Shown: piece by piece, positions 2,954 to 14,203 of the stretch
How positions within the stretch are numbered: the stretch's first letter is position 1
Layout: every line of letters starts with the position of its first letter
Virus record (IMG/VR): IMGVR_UViG_2802429227_000005
Location: 1-16,099 of that record
From: a virus
Lineage: Duplodnaviria; Heunggongvirae; Uroviricota; Caudoviricetes
DNA length: 16,099 nucleotides
Direction: 5' to 3' (one strand)
Translations under genes and position numbers: made by a program
The notes under the pieces: model-generated
The model's input: the letters and a program-made list of their open reading frames with translations, nothing else
Told to the model about the DNA's origin: nothing
The model's database searches: none

Positions 2954-3450
2954 TGGTTGCCTCCTTTGCGAAGCTGGTCGGCGAACAAACGTACACCAGA
3001 CGCTTCACTGCGTAGAAACTTAACGGCATAATCAAAACCACCTCGTTCTGCGTCGTCTGCTGCGTTGTCGAGGTTATCTGCGTACATCTCTACCCCCTGC
3101 GCCCGTACTTCAGCCAGGAAAGCATCGGTGGCTGGGGTGTCTGATTGCAGAGACTTTGCGCGATAGTCATTCCACCCTCTTGCATACATGGGATTAACTT
3201 GCACTCCATCTTTTACGCAATATGCCTGCCCTCCACGGTTGATAACCTCAATTTCGCCCATAGCGCCAGACTTCAGCCCCGCATTCTCCGCCGCCAGCTC
3301 CGCGCACTTGGCCTCCGCTTCAGCAAATTTACGCACCAGATATTCAGCGTTTGTTTCGTTAACCTTTAGATCTCGTGGGATGCATTTACCTTTCAGAAAA
3401 CCATCCATCTCAATTAGTGACATTTGTTTCATTTCTTGCCACTCCGCCAC
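2950..3450 (-). CDS. Hypothetical early-left protein (166 aa from the GTG at 3450, or 160 aa from the ATG at 3432)
   Basis: ORF in the six-frame track; the start is ambiguous between GTG 3450 and an in-frame ATG at 3432 with GGAG upstream; overlaps the stop of the 3429..3593 small ORF. Confidence 0.5.
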
Positions 3451-3593
3451 ATCGCATTCAGATATTTGTTTTGATTCACTGAAGGAAAAGAATTTCTCTT
3501 AAGCAATTCCTCTCTCGATGGCATTGGCTTTACGCGTTGGCGAATAATCATTTCTGCCGGAAGAATGCCGGGATTGTATGCAAGTCCTCTCAT
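3429..3593 (-). CDS. Hypothetical small protein (54 aa; below the ORF-track cutoff)
   Basis: Manual translation: [54 protein letters not shown]; GAGGA Shine-Dalgarno 7 nt upstream of the ATG; fills the gap between flanking genes. Confidence 0.3.
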
Positions 3594-3609
3594 GGTAAAT
3601 TCCTCTTTG

Positions 3610-3924
3610 TTAATTTATTCGTATGCCTGCTCTTTCTTCATCGAGTTTTTTTAGCTTGTATCGCATAGCTCTTACTGAATAAATTGAGCGGCAGGTTGCA
3701 ATTGCTATTTCTTCTGCGGAGAACTTACCGAAAAGTGATACTTCGGCTCTTGTCCAGCGTCTTCCACGAAGTCGGCTAACAATGTCAGCGCCAATCCTTG
3801 TTGCTTTCGCCATTACTGCTTTTTCAGTCCTTCCCAGTTTTTCAGCGATAACTTCAACTGGCATTGTTGTCGCTACTTCGCGCAAGAAATCGACTTCCCA
3901 TTTCTCCCATGGAGTCTTTTTCAT
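3610..3924 (-). CDS. Hypothetical protein (104 aa) with two tandem W-x3-E...L repeats, possibly HTH/Myb-like DNA binding
   Basis: Internal repeat visible in the translation ([32 protein letters not shown] and [31 protein letters not shown]); immediately downstream of the Gp157-like gene. Confidence 0.5.
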
Positions 3925-3935
3925 AGGCGATACCG

Positions 3936-4424
3936 TTATTTGATAAGAAGTGAAGGTTTCCCAACTTTGAGTTGAGCGCCGGGGATATTTATTCCTGCTT
4001 TTAGTTGGTGTTTGATTGCCAGTTTGTCGGCTTTTATTGTTGTTTCAAACTCAACGTATTCTGGAGGAAGGGCGCTTGAGTCGATGATTTCTACAATTTC
4101 TGACGGTTTGCGGATTGTTACCTGGTGAATACCTGCTCGAATATTTTTCTTGCCAAACATTTCAAGCGATGACGCTATATATGATTTGATGCTGTCAATC
4201 TTATTTTGAATTACTGCAGCTCGCTCATTCAGTGACTTTGCCTCTTCCTTGAGGCGTTCGGCATAACCAGATTCATTTTTAATGACGGAAAGAAGTTGCT
4301 CTATTTTATCGGTAAATTCTCCTTCCATGCCTTCTATTGTGTCAGCAATCATCTCTGGTTCTAAATCTGAATCCATCAATTTTGCGTATTCATTGGCAAT
4401 TTCATACAGTTTGCTCACTGGCAA
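3936..4424 (-). CDS. Siphovirus Gp157-like protein (162 aa), recombination-associated partner often found next to RecT/Erf
   Basis: Coiled-coil N-terminus (LYEIANEYAKLMDSDLEPEMIADTIEGMEGEFTDKIEQL...) resembles the Gp157 family as I recall it; sits directly downstream of recT, overlapping its end. Confidence 0.5.
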   Translation of the reverse strand: MPVSKLYEIANEYAKLMDSDLEPEMIADTIEGMEGEFTDKIEQLLSVIKNESGYAERLKEEAKSLNERAAVIQNKIDSIKSYIASSLEMFGKKNIRAGIHQVTIRKPSEIVEIIDSSALPPEYVEFETTIKADKLAIKHQLKAGINIPGAQLKVGKPSLLIK

Positions 4425-5304
4425 CCTCCAGTTTCGCTTTGCATTCTATGTAAATGGCTTGTACGTTCTGCTGCAATTTCATTCCAGATGTCAGGCGATA
4501 TGCTTCTGCAAAATATCGCTTCAAATCATCCATGTTTTCTGCCTGAGCCATTTCATCACAAAGAAGTTGTGCTTTATCCATTATTTCCTGCTGGCGTTTC
4601 CGTTCATCTTCGCGGATATCTTCCTCTGATTTGTGCGGCATAACTGGTTCCTGATGCATACCTTCATCTTCGTTAAGCAGGTGAATGGCATTATCCAGTC
4701 GCTGGGCTTTAGGCCAGTATTTGCTGGCGCGTTTAACTATTGTTTTACGCGCCATCTCTTCCCAGAATGTTTTCCACGGTCCATTCTTTGCCTTGCTCGT
4801 TGCTTCCACAGCTTTAATTTCTGCCAGACTCATTTCTTCAGTCAGGTAGTCACCATCTGCTGTTTTAACCGTGCAATAACCACCAACAATAGAGCCTCGC
4901 TCACCAAATGCGTTGTATTTGTGGGTTGGTGCTGAATCAAGGCCATTTGATTCATAGGTGTCGTTTGAGTACACCAGTTTGCATTGCCCCCACTTAATTG
5001 ATCCTGTCGACTGTGCAAGGTGAAGTAATCCCATATAGCTGATATCAAGGCACACCATGCCGTCGCGCGGAACCAGATAAGCAAGTTTGCTGGCTGGGTT
5101 TAAGGTGATGCCGATCGCCGCAACATTGATGATGGCGTTCTGTGCGCTGGTTGGATTTGCCAGTGCCGTTTTAGCCAGGTAATCATTTTTCTGGAAATAC
5201 TGAATTGCAAACTGGCTTTCCTTAGCCCATGTCACCGTCTGTTCAGTCAATGCTCCGCAGAATAACTGCTCTTGCTGTTTAACGAATTCAACGATATTGC
5301 TCAT
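4402..5304 (-). CDS. recT: RecT-family single-strand annealing protein (300 aa)
   Basis: Motif NGPWKTFWEEMARKTIVKRASKYWP matches the conserved RecT core (E. coli RecT NGPWVTHWEEMAKKTAIRRLFKYLP); in the bet position of the early-left operon. Confidence 0.85.
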   Translation of the reverse strand: MSNIVEFVKQQEQLFCGALTEQTVTWAKESQFAIQYFQKNDYLAKTALANPTSAQNAIINVAAIGITLNPASKLAYLVPRDGMVCLDISYMGLLHLAQSTGSIKWGQCKLVYSNDTYESNGLDSAPTHKYNAFGERGSIVGGYCTVKTADGDYLTEEMSLAEIKAVEATSKAKNGPWKTFWEEMARKTIVKRASKYWPKAQRLDNAIHLLNEDEGMHQEPVMPHKSEEDIREDERKRQQEIMDKAQLLCDEMAQAENMDDLKRYFAEAYRLTSGMKLQQNVQAIYIECKAKLEVASEQTV

Positions 5305-5612
5305 GCTGCTTCTCCAAAAATGTGTCTGCGTTTGAATATTGCGAAGGCATATTCAGCCTTAACTCTTTCGGTTATTGCATCCCAGAACCATTCAGCGGCT
5401 TTTTCCTGATAGTTACAGTCATCATCTTCCAGCCAGTCGATAGCGTCCTTAGTGTGTTCATCTGGTTTATATGAGCGAAGCATTTCGCTTATTGGGTCGC
5501 AACGTTTGCAGAGGCGATCAACTTCACTGTTGATTCGTTCGTAATCTTCATCAGTAAAACTTGCGATTATTTGCGATATTTCACGCTTATCATTCAGAGT
5601 CAGAATCATCAT
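5301..5612 (-). CDS. Hypothetical acidic protein (103 aa) in the gam/arf position upstream of recT
   Basis: ORF with an AGGAG Shine-Dalgarno; ATGA stop/start overlap with recT; no resemblance to lambda Gam that I can see. Confidence 0.5.
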   Translation of the reverse strand: MMILTLNDKREISQIIASFTDEDYERINSEVDRLCKRCDPISEMLRSYKPDEHTKDAIDWLEDDDCNYQEKAAEWFWDAITERVKAEYAFAIFKRRHIFGEAA

Positions 5613-5693
5613 CTTTCTCCTGTTCTTTGTGCTGATTGAGCATTTTGTTCATCTGACGAATGAATTCTTCGTCTGACCAGTTATCTGTAAAAC

Positions 5694-5846
5694 TCATTTC
5701 CTGCGATACCACGGAAGGTTGATAGCTGATTTCATCGCTTTATTTGCTTCAAGCCACATTTTGGAATCACCAATAAATCTGGCTATTACTGCTTTGTTCT
5801 GTGCAGCACGAAGCATCTGGTGATTAATGGCTATTTCATTGCGCAT
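5694..5846 (-). CDS. Small hypothetical protein (50 aa) in the kil position
   Basis: Manual translation: MRNEIAINHQMLRAAQNKAVIARFIGDSKMWLEANKAMKSAINLPWYRRK; start overlaps the 3' end of the CIII-like gene; between cIII-like and the recombination genes as kil is in lambda. Confidence 0.3.
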   Translation of the reverse strand: MRNEIAINHQMLRAAQNKAVIARFIGDSKMWLEANKAMKSAINLPWYRRK

Positions 5847-5965
5847 AACGCCTCCAGTTGTTTCTTTGCTGCTCTGATTAATTGTTTAACTCGGCGTGAT
5901 AATTCAGATTCGTGCGGGTAGAAAGCGGACATGACGCCGCTACCCGCGAGCTGAAAGTGCATCAT
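5831..5965 (-). CDS. cIII: CIII-like protein (44 aa; putative FtsH inhibitor that would stabilise CII)
   Basis: Translation MMHFQLAGSGVMSAFYPHESELSRRVKQLIRAAKKQLEALCAMK aligns in pattern with lambda CIII (...AGWPVAGCPSESLLERITRKLRDGWKRL...); GGAG 6 nt upstream of the ATG-ATG. The ORF-track entry 5831..6070 has a longer, probably spurious N-terminal extension. Confidence 0.5.
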   Translation of the reverse strand: MMHFQLAGSGVMSAFYPHESELSRRVKQLIRAAKKQLEALCAMK

Positions 5966-6025
5966 GGGTAACTCCTTATATTTGATTGCATAACGAAAAC
6001 GCCTCGAGTGAAGCGTTATTGGTAT

Positions 6026-6055
6026 GCATATAAAAAGGCCCTCACATTGGAGGGC
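6026..6055 (-). terminator. Rho-independent terminator candidate in the PL operon (between ral and cIII-like)
   Basis: Minus strand GCCCTC-CAATGT-GAGGGC (6-bp stem) followed by CTTTTTATAT. Confidence 0.5.
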
Positions 6056-6191
6056 AAAGAAGATTTCCAATAATCAGAACAAGTCGGCTCCTGTTTAGTT
6101 ACGAGCGACATTGCTCCGTGTATTCACTCGTTGGAATGAATACACAGTGCAGTGTTTATTCTGTTGTTTATGCCAAAAATAAAGGCCACCA

Positions 6192-6608: not shown

Positions 6609-7148
6609 ATGAGTAACTGGTGGCAGGAACTATTACGTTTCTTCCTGCGTGGTCTTACGCTACAACAGTTAATTCATATGCTTATTATTTTAATTGCCTT
6701 GATAATAATCACCCCTGCATCAATTAAAGAGTGGGTAGATATAAGGAACCCAGAAATACTTCCAGATCACTGGATGTATTACGCAATGCTTTTGTGTATC
6801 AGTTATGTTCTGAACAGGGTGATGGAGTTTATATTTCTGGCATCTTCAGACAGATATAAAAAATATCTCAGTAAGAGAGATGAGGCTAAAGTAATTGTGG
6901 AGACTGAGCGCCTGTTCAATTCTCTGAGTATTCAGGAAAAAGAGGTTTTAGCATTTGCTGTTATGGCAAATAACAAAATCGTACTTAAGCACGGCGATCC
7001 GGTCGCTTTATCTCTTATGAGAAAAGGCCTTCTCCATCGCTCAGGTGTGACTTACAGCGCGTCAGGTAAAGAGAAATTTGTTATACCTGACGTCTGGTTC
7101 CATGAGTGTTATATGCGCTTTGCTGGTAAAGCTGATGAGCTAATTTAG
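6609..7148 (+). CDS. sieB: Superinfection-exclusion protein B-like membrane protein (179 aa)
   Basis: N-terminal transmembrane segment (LIHMLIILIALIIITPA); rightward gene embedded in the leftward PL operon and ending 21 bp from the 3' end of N, as sieB does in lambda. Assignment is positional and topological, not by sequence identity. Confidence 0.45.
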   Translation: MSNWWQELLRFFLRGLTLQQLIHMLIILIALIIITPASIKEWVDIRNPEILPDHWMYYAMLLCISYVLNRVMEFIFLASSDRYKKYLSKRDEAKVIVETERLFNSLSIQEKEVLAFAVMANNKIVLKHGDPVALSLMRKGLLHRSGVTYSASGKEKFVIPDVWFHECYMRFAGKADELI

Positions 7149-7169: not shown

Positions 7170-7442
7170 TCACCTCGCTGTCAGTTGTTTTGATTTCCGG
7201 TAGCCTGCCGCGTAAATGGCTACGTTTGGCAGGCAAATACTTCCACTGCATTCATCTGCCTTCTTGCAGCAAAGGCTTCCTAGTGATGCTGCTTTGTCTG
7301 CTCTGACGCAACCAGAGAGCTTTAGCGCAATTTTTCGCGCCAGTGCTTCATTACTGCGTCGCTCGGCAATAAGTTCTGCTCTGCGAGCTTTGTAGCGGCT
7401 TTTTGCCGTACCTTTGGATTCTTTCCAGACAATGGTTACCAT
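7170..7442 (-). CDS. N: N-like transcription antiterminator with an arginine-rich motif, phage-21 type (90 aa from the ATG at 7442)
   Basis: Arg-rich N-terminal segment GTAKSRYKARRAELIAERR matches the phi21 N RNA-binding peptide as I recall it; C-terminus YAAGYRKSKQLTAR resembles P22 gp24; GGAGA Shine-Dalgarno before the ATG at 7442; a nut site lies upstream. Confidence 0.7.
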   Translation of the reverse strand: MVTIVWKESKGTAKSRYKARRAELIAERRSNEALARKIALKLSGCVRADKAASLGSLCCKKADECSGSICLPNVAIYAAGYRKSKQLTAR

Positions 7443-7553
7443 GATGGTCTCCTTTAAGTGGCTTTGGCGCATGACGCGTCGAGGTGCTTATCTTCTCGAT
7501 CGCTGTCTTGCAGCTGCAATTCGCGCCATCCCCAAAACCACTCAAGTTCTGGT

Positions 7554-7756: not shown

Positions 7757-8407
7757 TTAAGGAAGGTTTGCTAGCTTGGCATCAACGACAACGCCAATGA
7801 TTTTACAGTTCCCATTGATTTCAATCATTGGGTATTGTGGATTGAGTGGTTTCAGGAATTTTCTACCGGCATCAATAACTAACTTTTTGAATGTCGCCTC
7901 GTTTTCTCCTTCAAGTTTGGCGACTACCAGCTTTCCATTACGTGGTTCGACTTCTGGGTCGACGAGAATAATCATCCCCTCAGGAATACTCAGTCCTGCC
8001 GGGGCAGTCATTGAATCGCCTTTAACGTCGAGCCAAAAAGAGTCTTCAGAACAATCTACCGTTGTGTCGTACCAGTTATCTATTGCACGCCTATGATATG
8101 GCTCTACAGCTTCCATCCAACATCCTGCGCTTACCCAACTAATTAGAGGATACGAACCTCTTGGATCATGCCTGCTGTGATAGGCAATGTTTGAAAGACT
8201 ATCCTCTCCTTTCAACAGGTAATCAGGGGAGCACTGCAAAGCCTTGGCTAAGGCCAATAGGTTTTCGCCATTGGGCTCAGTTTCAGATCGCTCCCACTGG
8301 GAAATAGCAACATTAGACACGCCAACCATCTTGCCAAGGGCAGCCTGCCTAATCTTGAGTTCTTTTCTGCGAGCGCGAATACGCTCACCCATCAGTTGTG
8401 TATTCAT
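7757..8407 (-). CDS. c2: Phage repressor, P22 C2 type (HTH_XRE N-terminal domain plus LexA/S24-like C-terminal domain; 216 aa)
   Basis: Translation MNTQLMGERIRARRKELKIRQAALGKMVGVSNVAISQWERSETEP... matches the P22 c2 repressor almost residue for residue as I recall it; C-terminal GDSM and K (Ser-Lys dyad) self-cleavage motifs are present. Confidence 0.9.
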   Translation of the reverse strand: MNTQLMGERIRARRKELKIRQAALGKMVGVSNVAISQWERSETEPNGENLLALAKALQCSPDYLLKGEDSLSNIAYHSRHDPRGSYPLISWVSAGCWMEAVEPYHRRAIDNWYDTTVDCSEDSFWLDVKGDSMTAPAGLSIPEGMIILVDPEVEPRNGKLVVAKLEGENEATFKKLVIDAGRKFLKPLNPQYPMIEINGNCKIIGVVVDAKLANLP

Positions 8408-8487: not shown

Positions 8488-8673
8488 ATGTACAAAAAAG
8501 ATGTTATTGACCACTTCGGAACCCAGCGTGCTGTTGCTAAAGCACTAGGCATTAGCGATGCAGCAGTCTCTCAGTGGAAAGAAGTTATCCCAGAGAAAGA
8601 CGCCTATCGATTGGAAATCGTTACAGCTGGCGCCCTGAAGTATCAAGAAAGTGCTTACCGCCAAGCGGCATAA
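8488..8673 (+). CDS. cro: Cro repressor, P22 type (61 aa)
   Basis: Translation MYKKDVIDHFGTQRAVAKALGISDAAVSQWKEVIPEKDAYRLEIVTAGALKYQESAYRQAA matches P22 Cro as I recall it; GGAG Shine-Dalgarno; divergent from c2 across OR. Confidence 0.85.
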   Translation: MYKKDVIDHFGTQRAVAKALGISDAAVSQWKEVIPEKDAYRLEIVTAGALKYQESAYRQAA

Positions 8674-12082: not shown

Positions 12083-12493
12083 ATGAAGCAAACAATCTTC
12101 CTCCGAACTAAGCAACAACAGCAAGCTGCAATAAATGCCATCCTCGCAACACCACTCGATAAAGACAAGCCAGTCACCATCCGCATTACTGACTACAAGC
12201 GCAACCTTGACCAGAACGCAAAATTTCACGCGATGGTCGCAGATATCGCCAGGCAAGTTCAGTGGCGCGATAAATGGTTAAAACCAGAACAATGGAAGGT
12301 TTTGTTGATCAGCGGTCATGCAGTGGCTACAAAGCAGGAAGCTGATGTTTTGCCCGGCCTTGAAGGCGAATACGTCAACATTCGCGAAAGCAGCGCGCAG
12401 ATGAGCGTGAAGCGTATGGCAAGTCTGATCGAGTACACAACAGCATGGGCTATTGGTCAGGGTGTCAGATTTACCGACAGGAGGTACGAATGA
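12083..12493 (+). CDS. ninB: NinB (Orf-family recombination mediator; 136 aa)
   Basis: Similarity to lambda NinB ([30 protein letters not shown] against VVTIQERNRSLDQNRKLWACLGDVSRQVEW); GAAGGAG Shine-Dalgarno. Confidence 0.8.
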
Positions 12494-13554: not shown

Positions 13555-13844
13555 TGGCTAATCTACGCAAAGAAGCACGCGGCAGAGAATGCCAGGTACG
13601 TATTTACGGCGTATGCAATGGCAATCCTGAAACTACAGTTCTGGCACATTACCGGATGGCTGGAATTTGCGGAACGGGAATGAAGCCTGACGACCTGATC
13701 GGTGCATGGGCTTGTAGTTCGTGTCACGATGAAATCGACCGACGCACCCATAACCTCGACAACAAAGACGCCAGACTTTACCACCTCGAAGGCGTGATCA
13801 GGACGCAGGCGATACTGCTGAAGGAGGGAAAGATTAAGCCATGA
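13554..13844 (+). CDS. ybcO: YbcO-like DUF1364 zinc-binding putative nuclease (96 aa)
   Basis: Translation MANLRKEARGRECQVRIYGVCNGNPETTVLAHYRMAGICGTG...CSSCHDEIDRR closely resembles E. coli DLP12 YbcO as I recall it. Confidence 0.7.
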   Translation: MANLRKEARGRECQVRIYGVCNGNPETTVLAHYRMAGICGTGMKPDDLIGAWACSSCHDEIDRRTHNLDNKDARLYHLEGVIRTQAILLKEGKIKP

Positions 13845-14203
13845 ACGAATATCAGTTTGTGCTTCCATACCCGCCGTCGGTGAATACCTACTGGCGAAGA
13901 CGAGGAAGCCAATACTACATCAGCGATAAAGGCCAGAAATACCGAAAAGACGTTCAGCAAATCATCCGCCAACTTAAGTTAGACATTTTCACCAAATCAC
14001 GACTCCGCATCAAAGTAATCGCAGACGTTCCAGACTCCCGCCGCCGCGACCTCGACAACATCCTGAAAGGTTTACTCGACTCCCTTATCCACGCCGGATT
14101 TGCGGAAGACGACGAGCAATTCGATGACATTCGCGTAATTCGTGGTGTGAAAGTACCAGGCGGACGGCTTGGAATAAAAATCACCGAACTGGAGAACGTA
14201 TGA
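13841..14203 (+). CDS. rusA: RusA Holliday-junction resolvase (120 aa)
   Basis: Similarity to E. coli RusA (LPYPPSVNTYWRRRG..., DLDNILKGLLDSLIHAGF..DDEQ against LPWPPSNNRYYRHNRG..., DLDNLQKAAFDALTKAGF..DDAQ); ATGA overlap with upstream gene. Confidence 0.85.
   Translation: MNEYQFVLPYPPSVNTYWRRRGSQYYISDKGQKYRKDVQQIIRQLKLDIFTKSRLRIKVIADVPDSRRRDLDNILKGLLDSLIHAGFAEDDEQFDDIRVIRGVKVPGGRLGIKITELENV

What the first reader, a model, noticed from the sequence alone, without database searches (positions are those of the whole stretch)
3936..5612. Recombination module has RecT but no exonuclease partner; flanked by a Gp157-like and an unknown 103-aa protein
RecT-family annealases normally pair with a 5'-3' exonuclease (RecE or lambda Exo type). 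Here recT is translationally coupled upstream to an uncharacterised acidic 103-aa protein (in the gam/arf position) and downstream to a Gp157-like coiled-coil protein, with no nuclease-like ORF in the operon. The 103-aa protein is a candidate host-nuclease (RecBCD) inhibitor or annealase accessory factor of unknown family.
Basis: partly seen in the sequence, partly recalled or inferred. Interest (0 to 1): 0.5.

Follow-up and report, generated by a model that had tools for sequence, protein, structure and literature searches.

The report
Nuclease-less RecT module with hidden Gam
This prophage's recombination genes lack their own DNA-chewing enzyme, an arrangement already catalogued in related phages, but the small unnamed gene in front of them looks like an unrecognised relative of phage lambda's Gam protein, which blocks the host's main DNA-degrading enzyme.

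Summary
On the minus strand, a 103-aa ORF (5301-5612), recT (4402-5304) and a Gp157-family gene (3936-4418) form an overlapping chain in the early-left operon of an E. coli lambdoid prophage. No nuclease domain was found in that operon.

The "missing exonuclease" is not new. The same module occurs in phages HK140, mEpX1, Kapi1 and Gally. Zheng et al. 2025 (PMC12315714) already list HK140 as annealase plus MuGam-type end-binding RecBCD inhibitor with no nuclease, and 84 of 246 lambdoid Rec modules lack one.

It is most likely a third sequence family of Gam-fold RecBCD inhibitors. The downstream 104-aa gene is in the P22 Abc1 family. All functions are inferred.

The parts
5301..5612 (-). 103-aa (probably 102-aa, ATG 5609) acidic all-helical protein, called 'X' here. 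It is the first gene of the Rec module and a predicted Gam-fold host-nuclease (RecBCD) inhibitor. phrog_3486, unannotated.
4402..5304 (-). RecT-family single-strand annealing protein, 300 aa. Core about 1-215, plus a C-terminal tail (216-300) that is conserved only in Gp157-linked modules.
   Evidence: PF03837 E 2.5e-33, phrog_148 E 1.8e-91. It is 57% identical to phi80 RecT over residues 4-217 only, and 75-86% identical over full length to RecTs that are followed by Gp157.
3936..4418 (-). Sipho_Gp157 / Mu Gam-like protein, 160 aa from GTG 4418 (162 aa from TTG 4424). Predicted DNA-end-binding, end-protecting protein. It occupies the slot that an exonuclease fills in sister modules.
   Evidence: PF05565 E 4e-37. 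Weak collinear PF07352 Phage_Mu_Gam match, E 0.006. phrog_253 'Mu Gam-like end protection', E 6.5e-54. The HK140 homologue is classed as MuGam in PMC12315714. GGAGG lies 6 nt before GTG 4418.
3610..3924 (-). 104-aa basic protein of the P22 Abc1 / Mu gp9 family (phrog_323). Likely an accessory gene of the module.
   Evidence: phrog_323 E 1.1e-20. P22 Abc1 hits the same PHROG at E 1.3e-23. Mu gp9, next to Mu gam, carries the same PHROG annotation and gives a pairwise BLASTP E of 1.5e-4. No direct BLAST or tblastn match to P22 Abc1.
5590..5697 (-). 35-aa chimeric ORF. It is coupled to the kil stop (ATGA) and overlaps the start of X. Its first 17 codons are those of HK75 gp33. It marks the mosaic junction (about 5648) where the X cassette joins the kil-cIII segment.
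   Evidence: 100% DNA identity to HK75 gp33 over 68 nt, then divergence. phrog_17766 and phrog_2123 match the N-terminus only. HK97/HK75-type identity ends at window 5648.
5694..5846 (-). kil (context: the upstream neighbour, as for lambda gam).
   Evidence: Annotated as kil in matching RefSeq and phage records. Lambda order cIII-kil-gam-bet-exo is shown.
5831..5965 (-). cIII (context). The real start is probably the ATG at about 5965.
   Evidence: PF08134 cIII E 7.8e-30, on residues 37-73 of the 79-aa maximal ORF.

Best explanation
This is a 'P22 functional type' recombination module of a lambdoid prophage: an annealase plus anti-RecBCD functions, with no nuclease of its own. It is transcribed from pL after N-cIII-kil.

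Proposed mechanism:
1. The 103-aa protein X is a remote, unannotated homologue of lambda Gam. It is inferred to act as an acidic helical dimer that plugs the DNA-binding channel of host RecBCD, as lambda GamS does (PMC5218532).
2. Gp157, a Mu Gam/Ku-like protein, is inferred to cap double-strand ends.
3. RecT anneals single strands exposed by host enzymes or at replication forks. Its partner-specific C-terminal tail possibly docks on Gp157, as lambda Beta's C-terminal domain docks on Exo.
4. The Abc1-family protein is an accessory factor of unknown action.

What is shown: gene content, order and coupling, family memberships, the predicted Gam-like fold, the weak sequence link to Gam, and the cassette behaviour.

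What is inferred: dimerisation of X, RecBCD as its target, end binding by Gp157, and any RecT-Gp157 contact.
For: **Module identity**
- RecT, Gp157 and phrog_323 matches.
- Near-identical modules in HK140, mEpX1, Kapi1, Gally and Louie.
- At least 80% of the 2.5-kb region is present in 264 of 5426 complete E. coli genomes.
- HK140 is described as SAP-4 + MuGam without nuclease or SSB in PMC12315714.

**X is Gam-like**
- The AF2 model built on 25 sequences has pLDDT 89.5 and pTM 0.75.
- The X-family HMM was run against 449 ORFs from lambdoid early regions. The first non-family hits are Dewey Gam (E 0.0012) and lambda Gam (E 0.016). The next decoy is at 0.15.
- The Gam HMM, run reciprocally, ranks phi80 GamL (7e-4) and then X members (0.001, 0.011, 0.084) before the first decoy at 0.3.
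- The hhalign score is 20.6, against 11.2 ± 2.1 for 300 column shuffles. None of the shuffles reached it.
- The two families share a motif, DDDx[xF/Y]QE..AE, in the last helix, and the alignment is collinear end to end (103 vs 98 aa).
- All 33 X members are acidic (pI 4.4-5.5), like GamS (5.0) and GamL (4.7). Abc1 and Abc2 are basic.

**Position**
- X is the first gene of the module, overlapping the next start by 1-4 nt, in 12 of 12 contexts.
- The following genes are RecT-Gp157, RecT-lambda-type Exo, ExoVIII-RecT, or ExoVIII-phrog_11517.
- Dewey replaces exactly window 5308-5690 with a canonical lambda-type gam, between the same kil and recT.
- SEN22 keeps X at 97% DNA identity but swaps out RecT-Gp157.
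- X divergence is uncoupled from RecT divergence.
- SEN22-type phages, scored as lacking anti-RecBCD, have 0 Chi sites in Table 1 of PMC12315714. That fits a hidden inhibitor.
Against: - No standard HMMER search links X to Gam.
- The profile-level signal is weak and mostly confined to about 30-45 residues.
- The Gam alignment used has low diversity (Neff 1.8).
- Similarity to phi80 GamL alone is at noise level (E 0.012 for one comparison; E 1.6).
- Foldseek against BFVD viral models returned no Gam or GamL hit. It gave only one unnamed 107-aa protein at E 0.013.
- The long N-terminal helix of GamS, which enters the RecB channel, is broken in two in the X model (H6-17, H21-35). X also lacks the N-terminal MNAYY..W signature that Gam and GamL share.
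- Carrying a Gam-like and a MuGam-like inhibitor together looks redundant. The 2025 survey reported such a pairing only in HK639.
- The Gp157-Mu Gam link was not reproduced by my shallow hhalign (E 0.28).
Confidence: 0.65

Rival explanations
1. X is a recombination accessory factor that acts on the phage's own annealase or nuclease, as P22 Arf does for Erf, and not on a host nuclease. Under this reading the Gam-like fold is a coincidence of small helical bundles.
For: X is translationally coupled to the next Rec gene in all 12 contexts, and RecT is present in 10 of the 12. The sequence link to Gam is weak. Foldseek on BFVD found no Gam.
Against: The gene immediately after X is RecT, ExoVIII or a PF27050 protein, which are unrelated folds. 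X occurs with two very different RecT lineages (19-22% identity to each other) and, in SEN22-type modules, with none. X and RecT identities are uncoupled: X is 25-32% identical where RecT is 75-77%. Cassette boundaries fall exactly between X and recT. A canonical gam substitutes for X in Dewey.
Confidence: 0.12
2. X has the Gam fold but targets something other than RecBCD, for example SbcCD, another end-processing enzyme, or a DNA-end-sensing defence nuclease. Gp157 would cover RecBCD, which would explain why both are kept.
For: X co-occurs with a MuGam-like gene in the HK140-type modules. X lacks the N-terminal Gam/GamL signature, and its first helix is broken in the model. Lambda Gam itself is reported to interact with SbcCD as well (PMC5218532). 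Early-left Rec loci are described as hotspots for anti-defence genes (bioRxiv 10.64898/2026.07.10.737580).
Against: Dewey carries a canonical lambda-type Gam together with the same Gp157, so the Gam + MuGam-like pairing occurs anyway. In modules that have an exonuclease, X is the only candidate inhibitor, exactly like gam in lambda.
Confidence: 0.15
3. The module is a decaying remnant. The exonuclease was lost, recT is functionless, and the 103-aa ORF is a fortuitous or degenerating reading frame.
For: The window comes from a mosaic region with at least one chimeric ORF (5590-5697). [quoted passage not shown]
Against: The same arrangement occurs in plaque-forming phages (HK140, mEpX1, Kapi1, Gally, Louie). 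It also occurs in distant relatives, with X at 25-32% identity and RecT-Gp157 intact. All ORFs are full length with strong family matches. The X family keeps its length and a confidently predicted fold across about 50 clusters.
Confidence: 0.03

Closest known systems
Lambda Gam (PF06064, phrog_259; structures 2UUZ, 5MBV)
   Different: No match to the Pfam or PHROG Gam models. About 16% identity. X lacks the N-terminal MNAYY..W signature. Its first helix is predicted to be broken in two. Dimerisation and RecBCD binding are untested.
phi80 GamL (phrog_1050), RecBCD/SbcCD inhibitor
   Same: It is another Gam-fold protein with very different sequence that heads a module containing a RecT-type annealase. 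phi80 RecT is 57% identical to this RecT core. GamL is also acidic and about 93 aa.
   Different: A separate PHROG. Similarity to X is at noise level. phi80 has the Mog/agt antitoxin gene upstream of gamL, and no such gene is present here. The phi80 module has a lambda-type Exo and no Gp157.
HK140 / mEpX1 Rec module ('SAP-4 + MuGam', P22 functional type; Zheng et al. 2025, PMC12315714)
   Same: Essentially the same DNA (about 93% identity). The gene order X-RecT-Gp157-Abc1-like is identical. No nuclease and no SSB.
   Different: None in structure. The published description counts only RecT and MuGam as module genes. It does not assign a role to the upstream 103-aa gene or to the downstream Abc1-family gene.
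P22 arf-erf-abc1-abc2 module
   Same: A nuclease-less lambdoid Rec module that relies on manipulating RecBCD. It contains a phrog_323 (Abc1-family) gene.
   Different: The annealase is Erf, not RecT. The RecBCD modifier is Abc2, which is basic and binds RecC, not a Gam-fold or MuGam-like protein. The arf slot here holds only a chimeric remnant.
Phage Mu Gam (PF07352), Ku-like end-binding protein
   Same: Gp157 gives a weak collinear match (E 0.006). It carries the PHROG label 'Mu Gam-like end protection'. It also has a phrog_323 neighbour, as Mu gam does (gp9).
   Different: The match is below the Pfam threshold. My own profile comparison was not significant. Gp157 is a separate Pfam family that was first described in Streptococcus phages.

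Membership tests
Lambda Gam host-nuclease inhibitor (PF06064 / phrog_259) | Significant match to the family's sequence model | tested here: not met
   No PF06064 hit for X or for any of 33 family members at E <= 1. X falls in phrog_3486, not 259 or 1050. No PDB Gam hit by HMMER.
Lambda Gam host-nuclease inhibitor (PF06064 / phrog_259) | Remote homology detectable by profile methods | tested here: inconclusive
   Gam proteins are the best non-self hits in the forward search. In the reciprocal search X members follow phi80 GamL. E-values are only 0.001-0.08 in a database of about 450-480 sequences. hhalign P is 0.0034, and 0 of 300 column shuffles reach the score.
Lambda Gam host-nuclease inhibitor (PF06064 / phrog_259) | Gam fold (helical; long N-terminal helix plus C-terminal helical domain) | tested here: met
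Lambda Gam host-nuclease inhibitor (PF06064 / phrog_259) | Small acidic protein (DNA-mimic charge pattern) | tested here: met
   pI 4.65, net charge -9. All 33 members have pI 4.4-5.5. GamS is 4.99 and GamL 4.70. The spatial charge pattern was not analysed.
Lambda Gam host-nuclease inhibitor (PF06064 / phrog_259) | Gene located between kil and the annealase/exonuclease genes of the pL operon | tested here: met
   Window order is cIII-kil-(35 aa)-X-recT. Lambda order is cIII-kil-gam-bet-exo. X heads the module in 12 of 12 contexts. Dewey has gam in the same slot.
Lambda Gam host-nuclease inhibitor (PF06064 / phrog_259) | Homodimer that binds RecBCD and blocks DNA entry | not testable with these tools
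Biochemistry is needed.
RecT family annealase (PF03837) | Match to the RecT domain model above threshold | tested here: met
   115.7 bits against a cut-off of 24. TIGR00616 gives 76.8 bits against 52.65.
RecET / Red-type two-component recombinase | Adjacent 5'-3' exonuclease gene (RecE/ExoVIII or lambda Exo/YqaJ type) | tested here: not met
   No nuclease family hit in any pL-operon ORF. Sister modules with the same X gene do carry ExoVIII or YqaJ-type genes.
Sipho_Gp157 (PF05565) | Full-length match to the family model | tested here: met
   128.1 bits against a cut-off of 28.6, profile positions 1-162 of 162.
Mu Gam / Ku-like end-binding proteins (PF07352) | Sequence or fold match to Mu Gam | tested here: inconclusive
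   PF07352 E 0.006, 17 bits, below the 28.3 cut-off but collinear over 115 residues. phrog_253 is labelled Mu Gam-like. My 4-sequence hhalign against Mu Gam gave E 0.28. No solved relative was found by sequence. The MuGam class assignment comes from PMC12315714.
P22 functional-type Rec module (annealase + anti-RecBCD, no nuclease, no SSB) | Annealase present, anti-RecBCD gene present, nuclease and SSB genes absent, contiguous in the early-left operon | tested here: met
   The near-identical HK140 module is classified this way.
P22 Abc1 family (phrog_323) | Match to the same profile family as P22 Abc1 | tested here: met
   The window 104-aa protein scores E 1.1e-20 and P22 Abc1 scores E 1.3e-23 against phrog_323. 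There is no direct pairwise BLAST hit.

The most novel reading that the evidence does not exclude
X founds a third, so far unannotated sequence family of Gam-fold inhibitors, alongside lambda Gam and phi80 GamL. If so, HK140-type phages would deploy up to three layers aimed at host end-processing: Gam-like, MuGam-like and Abc1-like. Phages currently scored as having no anti-RecBCD gene, such as the SEN22 type, would actually carry one. A more radical variant is that X keeps the Gam fold but has been retargeted to a different host nuclease or defence sensor, which would explain why it coexists with Gp157.
Probability: 0.6. Interest if true: 0.5.

Novelty: new member of a known kind. Interest (0 to 1): 0.38.

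Why it matters
The headline anomaly, RecT without an exonuclease, is already documented and is ordinary for lambdoid phages.

The useful result is the assignment of the orphan family phrog_3486 as a probable Gam-type RecBCD inhibitor. This family has about 1000 near-identical copies in public data. A region at least 80% covering this module is present in 264 of 5426 complete E. coli genomes.

If the assignment is confirmed, it would:
- correct published tallies of which lambdoid phages carry anti-RecBCD functions, and thereby tighten the reported inverse correlation between such inhibitors and Chi-site density (SEN22-type phages have 0 Chi sites);
- add a compact new inhibitor for recombineering toolkits that pair RecT with a RecBCD blocker;
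- predict a new trigger for RecBCD-guarding defence systems such as retron Ec48, P2 Old and Gabija-type sensing;
- give a natural series of modules (X with Gp157, with lambda-type Exo, or with ExoVIII) for asking what Gp157 does when it replaces the nuclease.

Tried and rejected
**Searches that found nothing**
- Standard family searches for X were all negative: Pfam, NCBIfam and PADLOC, on the single sequence and on 33 members.
- HMMER against PDB sequences gave only noise: designed repeat proteins and ribosomal protein S15.
- Foldseek of the good model against BFVD gave no Gam or GamL hit. This is a negative result and weakens the fold claim somewhat.
- The Rfam scan of the window found nothing.

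**Technical dead ends**
- The search for related loci with the 33-sequence alignment failed for lack of a conserved stretch. I used the look-up of encoding contigs and phage tblastn instead.
- The first AF2 model, built from 5 close sequences, was mediocre (pLDDT 77, four of five models below 51). It was replaced by the 25-sequence model.
- No supplementary tables of PMC12315714 were available. I therefore could not confirm gene by gene how that paper treated the HK140 gene upstream of recT.

**Hypotheses considered and rejected**
- X as an Abc2-like protein: Abc2 is basic and scores at noise with the X HMM.
- X as a homologue of HK75 gp33, the reported Old trigger: there is no similarity to X itself. 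Only the neighbouring 35-aa chimeric ORF shares gp33's first 17 codons.
- The 35-aa ORF as P22 Arf: it shares only an SDEEFI motif and falls in different PHROGs.

**Checks that were uninformative or failed**
- An independent check of the Gp157-Mu Gam homology, using hhalign on 4 sequences, was not significant.
- There are no Chi sites in the window, but only about 0.5 are expected by chance, so the count is uninformative.
Full report
**1. What the window is**

The 16-kb window is the immunity and early region of an E. coli lambdoid prophage.

- A CI-like repressor lies at 7757-8407 (minus strand), with cro at 8488-8673.
- The rightward operon carries cII, O, a DnaB-type helicase, NinB, an antirepressor, RusA and Q.
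- The leftward operon runs from N (7170-7472) through cIII (5831-5965), kil (5694-5846) and the genes of the finding, then Ea22-like, DUF551 and ea8.5-like genes, to an excisionase-like ORF at 1-192.
- SieB lies on the opposite strand at 6609-7148.

**2. The observation**

All three ORFs exist as described.

| Gene | Coordinates (minus strand) | Match |
|---|---|---|
| RecT | 4402-5304 | PF03837, E 2.5e-33 |
| Gp157-like | 3936-4424 | PF05565, E 4e-37, full profile length |
| 103-aa ORF | 5301-5612 | No Pfam, NCBIfam or PADLOC hit; phrog_3486 'unknown function' |

The sequence shows an ATGA overlap between the 103-aa ORF and recT. The recT stop lies inside the Gp157 ORF. A GGAGG sits six bases before GTG 4418. 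That GTG gives a 160-aa product, the length of the homologues in other loci, so it is the likelier start. No ORF of the leftward operon matches a nuclease family.

**3. The missing exonuclease is already documented**

- The 2.5-kb region 3600-6100 is 92-94% identical to phages Kapi1, mEpX1, HK140, Gally and Louie.
- At least 80% of it is present in 264 of 5426 complete E. coli genomes.
- Zheng, Casjens, Davidson, Amundsen and Smith (Genome Res 2025, PMC12315714) surveyed 325 lambdoid genomes.
  - They name HK140 as an example of annealase 'SAP-4' working with no phage nuclease, no SSB and a MuGam-type anti-RecBCD protein.
  - In their table, annealase + anti-RecBCD without nuclease is the 'P22 functional type' (46 phages).
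  - 84 of 246 Rec modules lack a nuclease.
- Gp157 is therefore the gene that paper calls MuGam. PHROGs labels it 'Mu Gam-like end protection'.
- My own support for the Mu Gam link is weak. The PF07352 match is collinear but sub-threshold (E 0.006), and a 4-sequence hhalign was not significant.

**4. The 103-aa protein (X) is a real, narrow family**

- A word-indexed search found only 27 clusters, mostly E. coli.
- An exhaustive profile search of 1.84 billion representatives found 54 hits. About 35 of these are full-length proteins of 97-110 aa.
- These align end to end at 24-52% identity to X.
- Named sources are E. coli, Salmonella, Cronobacter, Erwinia and Pantoea.

**5. Fold**

- With a 25-sequence alignment, the model reached pLDDT 89.5 and pTM 0.75, and all five models scored 79 or higher.
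- Foldseek against BFVD viral models did not recover Gam or GamL. I report this as a negative.

**6. Sequence link to Gam**

Ordinary HMMER searches see nothing.

- The first non-family hits were the Gam of phage Dewey (E 0.0012) and lambda Gam (E 0.016).
- The next sequence was at 0.15.

The reciprocal search with a Gam HMM ranked phi80 GamL (7e-4), then X members (0.001, 0.011, 0.084), before the first unrelated ORF at 0.3.

hhalign gave a score of 20.6 (P 0.0034). Three hundred column shuffles of the X alignment averaged 11.2 ± 2.1, and none reached the observed value.

The aligned core is X 46-88 against Gam '...[29 protein letters not shown]...'. A relaxed alignment is collinear from the first Met to the C-terminus.

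All 33 family members are acidic (pI 4.4-5.5), like GamS and GamL. P22 Abc1 and Abc2 are basic.

**7. Genomic behaviour**

In 12 independent contexts, X is always the first gene of the recombination module. It sits just after cIII and a Kil-like peptide, and its stop overlaps or abuts the next start.

| Genes following X | Where seen |
|---|---|
| RecT-Gp157 | window group, L006, L007; L008 with a PF27050 gene interposed |
| RecT, then lambda/YqaJ-type Exo | Cronobacter ENT47670, Erwinia Midgardsormr38, L021 |
| ExoVIII/DUF3799, then RecT | phiEt88, L010, L011 |
| ExoVIII, then a phrog_11517 protein, no RecT | SEN22; L023 with a PF27050 gene interposed |

BLAST breakpoints show clean cassettes.
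- Dewey matches the window through recT (3319-5307) and again from kil (5691-6150). It replaces 5308-5690 with a canonical lambda-type gam.
- SEN22 keeps X at 97% identity and the Abc1-like gene, but replaces 3925-5300.

X and RecT divergence are uncoupled. RecT is 75-77% identical in loci where X is 25-32% identical. The ExoVIII-linked RecTs belong to a different lineage, about 20% identical.

This pattern is what one expects of a host-directed function such as Gam. It is not what one expects of an annealase-specific cofactor. In addition, Table 1 of PMC12315714 lists the SEN22 type as lacking anti-RecBCD yet having 0 Chi sites. A hidden inhibitor would resolve that exception.

**8. Other module members**

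- **The 104-aa gene downstream of Gp157 (3610-3924).** It falls in phrog_323, as does P22 Abc1 (E 1.3e-23). Mu gp9, which sits next to Mu gam, carries the same PHROG annotation and gives a pairwise E of 1.5e-4. The Gally annotators' label 'Abc1-like' is therefore supported at profile level, although direct BLAST finds nothing.
- **The RecT C-terminal tail (216-300).** It is conserved only among Gp157-linked RecTs. Alignment to phi80-type RecTs stops at about residue 217. By analogy with the partner-binding C-terminal domain of lambda Beta, this suggests a RecT-Gp157 contact. This is inference only.

**9. Mechanism proposed**

After pL transcription:
1. X, probably as a dimer, blocks the DNA channel of RecBCD, as GamS does (PMC5218532).
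2. Gp157 caps double-strand ends.
3. RecT anneals single strands produced by host activities or at forks.
4. The Abc1-family protein assists in an unknown way.

Gene content, fold prediction and cassette behaviour are shown. Every biochemical step is inferred.

**10. Novelty and score**

The architecture is known. The new element is the assignment of an orphan family to the Gam fold and slot.
- That family has no functional annotation in Pfam, NCBIfam, PADLOC or PHROGs.
- GenBank records call it 'hypothetical protein'.
- The main text of the 2025 survey does not count it among anti-RecBCD genes. Its supplement was not available to me.
- A 2026 preprint notes that these loci are a likely reservoir of new RecBCD inhibitors.

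I rate this as a new member of a known kind. Interest is 0.38. Confidence is 0.65 that X inhibits RecBCD and about 0.8 that it is Gam-related.

Noticed in passing
window 5590-5697 (-): A 35-aa ORF is coupled to the kil stop (ATGA) and overlaps the start of X. Its first 17 codons and 68 nt are 100% identical to HK75 gp33, after which it diverges. It is therefore a chimeric remnant marking the mosaic junction near 5648. [quoted passage not shown] Its N-terminus shares an SDEEFI motif with P22 Arf, but it falls in a different PHROG.
   Followed up: partly
window 3610-3924 (-); L019 2971-3255; L020 1983-2282: The 104-aa basic protein after Gp157 is in phrog_323, together with P22 Abc1 and Mu gp9. 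Mu gp9 lies immediately next to Mu gam, so a phrog_323 gene accompanies a Mu Gam-type gene in both Mu and this lambdoid module. In SEN22 it is retained without Gp157.
   Followed up: partly
window 4402-4659 (RecT residues about 216-300): The RecT C-terminal tail is conserved (75-86% overall identity) only in RecTs that are followed by Gp157. RecTs followed by a lambda-type Exo align only to about residue 217-230. This suggests a swapped partner-interaction domain and a possible RecT-Gp157 contact.
   Followed up: partly
L013 4630-5199 (SEN22); L023 3302-3856: SEN22-type modules read X-ExoVIII-(184-189 aa phrog_11517, unknown function), with no recognisable annealase. Going by the survey's Table 1 row for SEN22 (SSB +, SAP -), the third gene is presumably the one counted as an SSB. 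It could be an unrecognised annealase or SSB partner.
   Followed up: no
L008 4306-4629; L023 2201-2470; L005/L006 4248-4556: A roughly 90-107-aa PF27050 (Phage_P22_Y8K6, phrog_1273) gene is sometimes inserted between X and the next Rec gene. In other loci it lies upstream of cIII. Its function is unknown.
   Followed up: no
window 6609-7148 (+): A SieB superinfection-exclusion gene (PF14163, E 3e-20) lies antisense within the leftward operon, as in P22 and lambda.
   Followed up: no
window 12083-12493 (+) and 13841-14203 (+): NinB (Orf-family recombination mediator) and a RusA Holliday-junction resolvase lie in the rightward operon. The phage therefore carries further recombination functions outside the Rec module. 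RusA is the only nuclease found in the window.
   Followed up: no
E. coli genome hits H29-H31, H36; L010 3030-3395: Some otherwise near-identical E. coli prophages carry an extra DUF2528-family gene inserted within this 2.5-kb region. A DUF2528 gene also lies upstream of X in L010.
   Followed up: no
BFVD hit UPI001E6C2358: The only near-significant Foldseek hit of the X model among viral models is an unnamed 107-aa protein (E 0.013, probability 1.00, TM 0.59, 21% identity). It is possibly a distant family member and was not identified.
   Followed up: no
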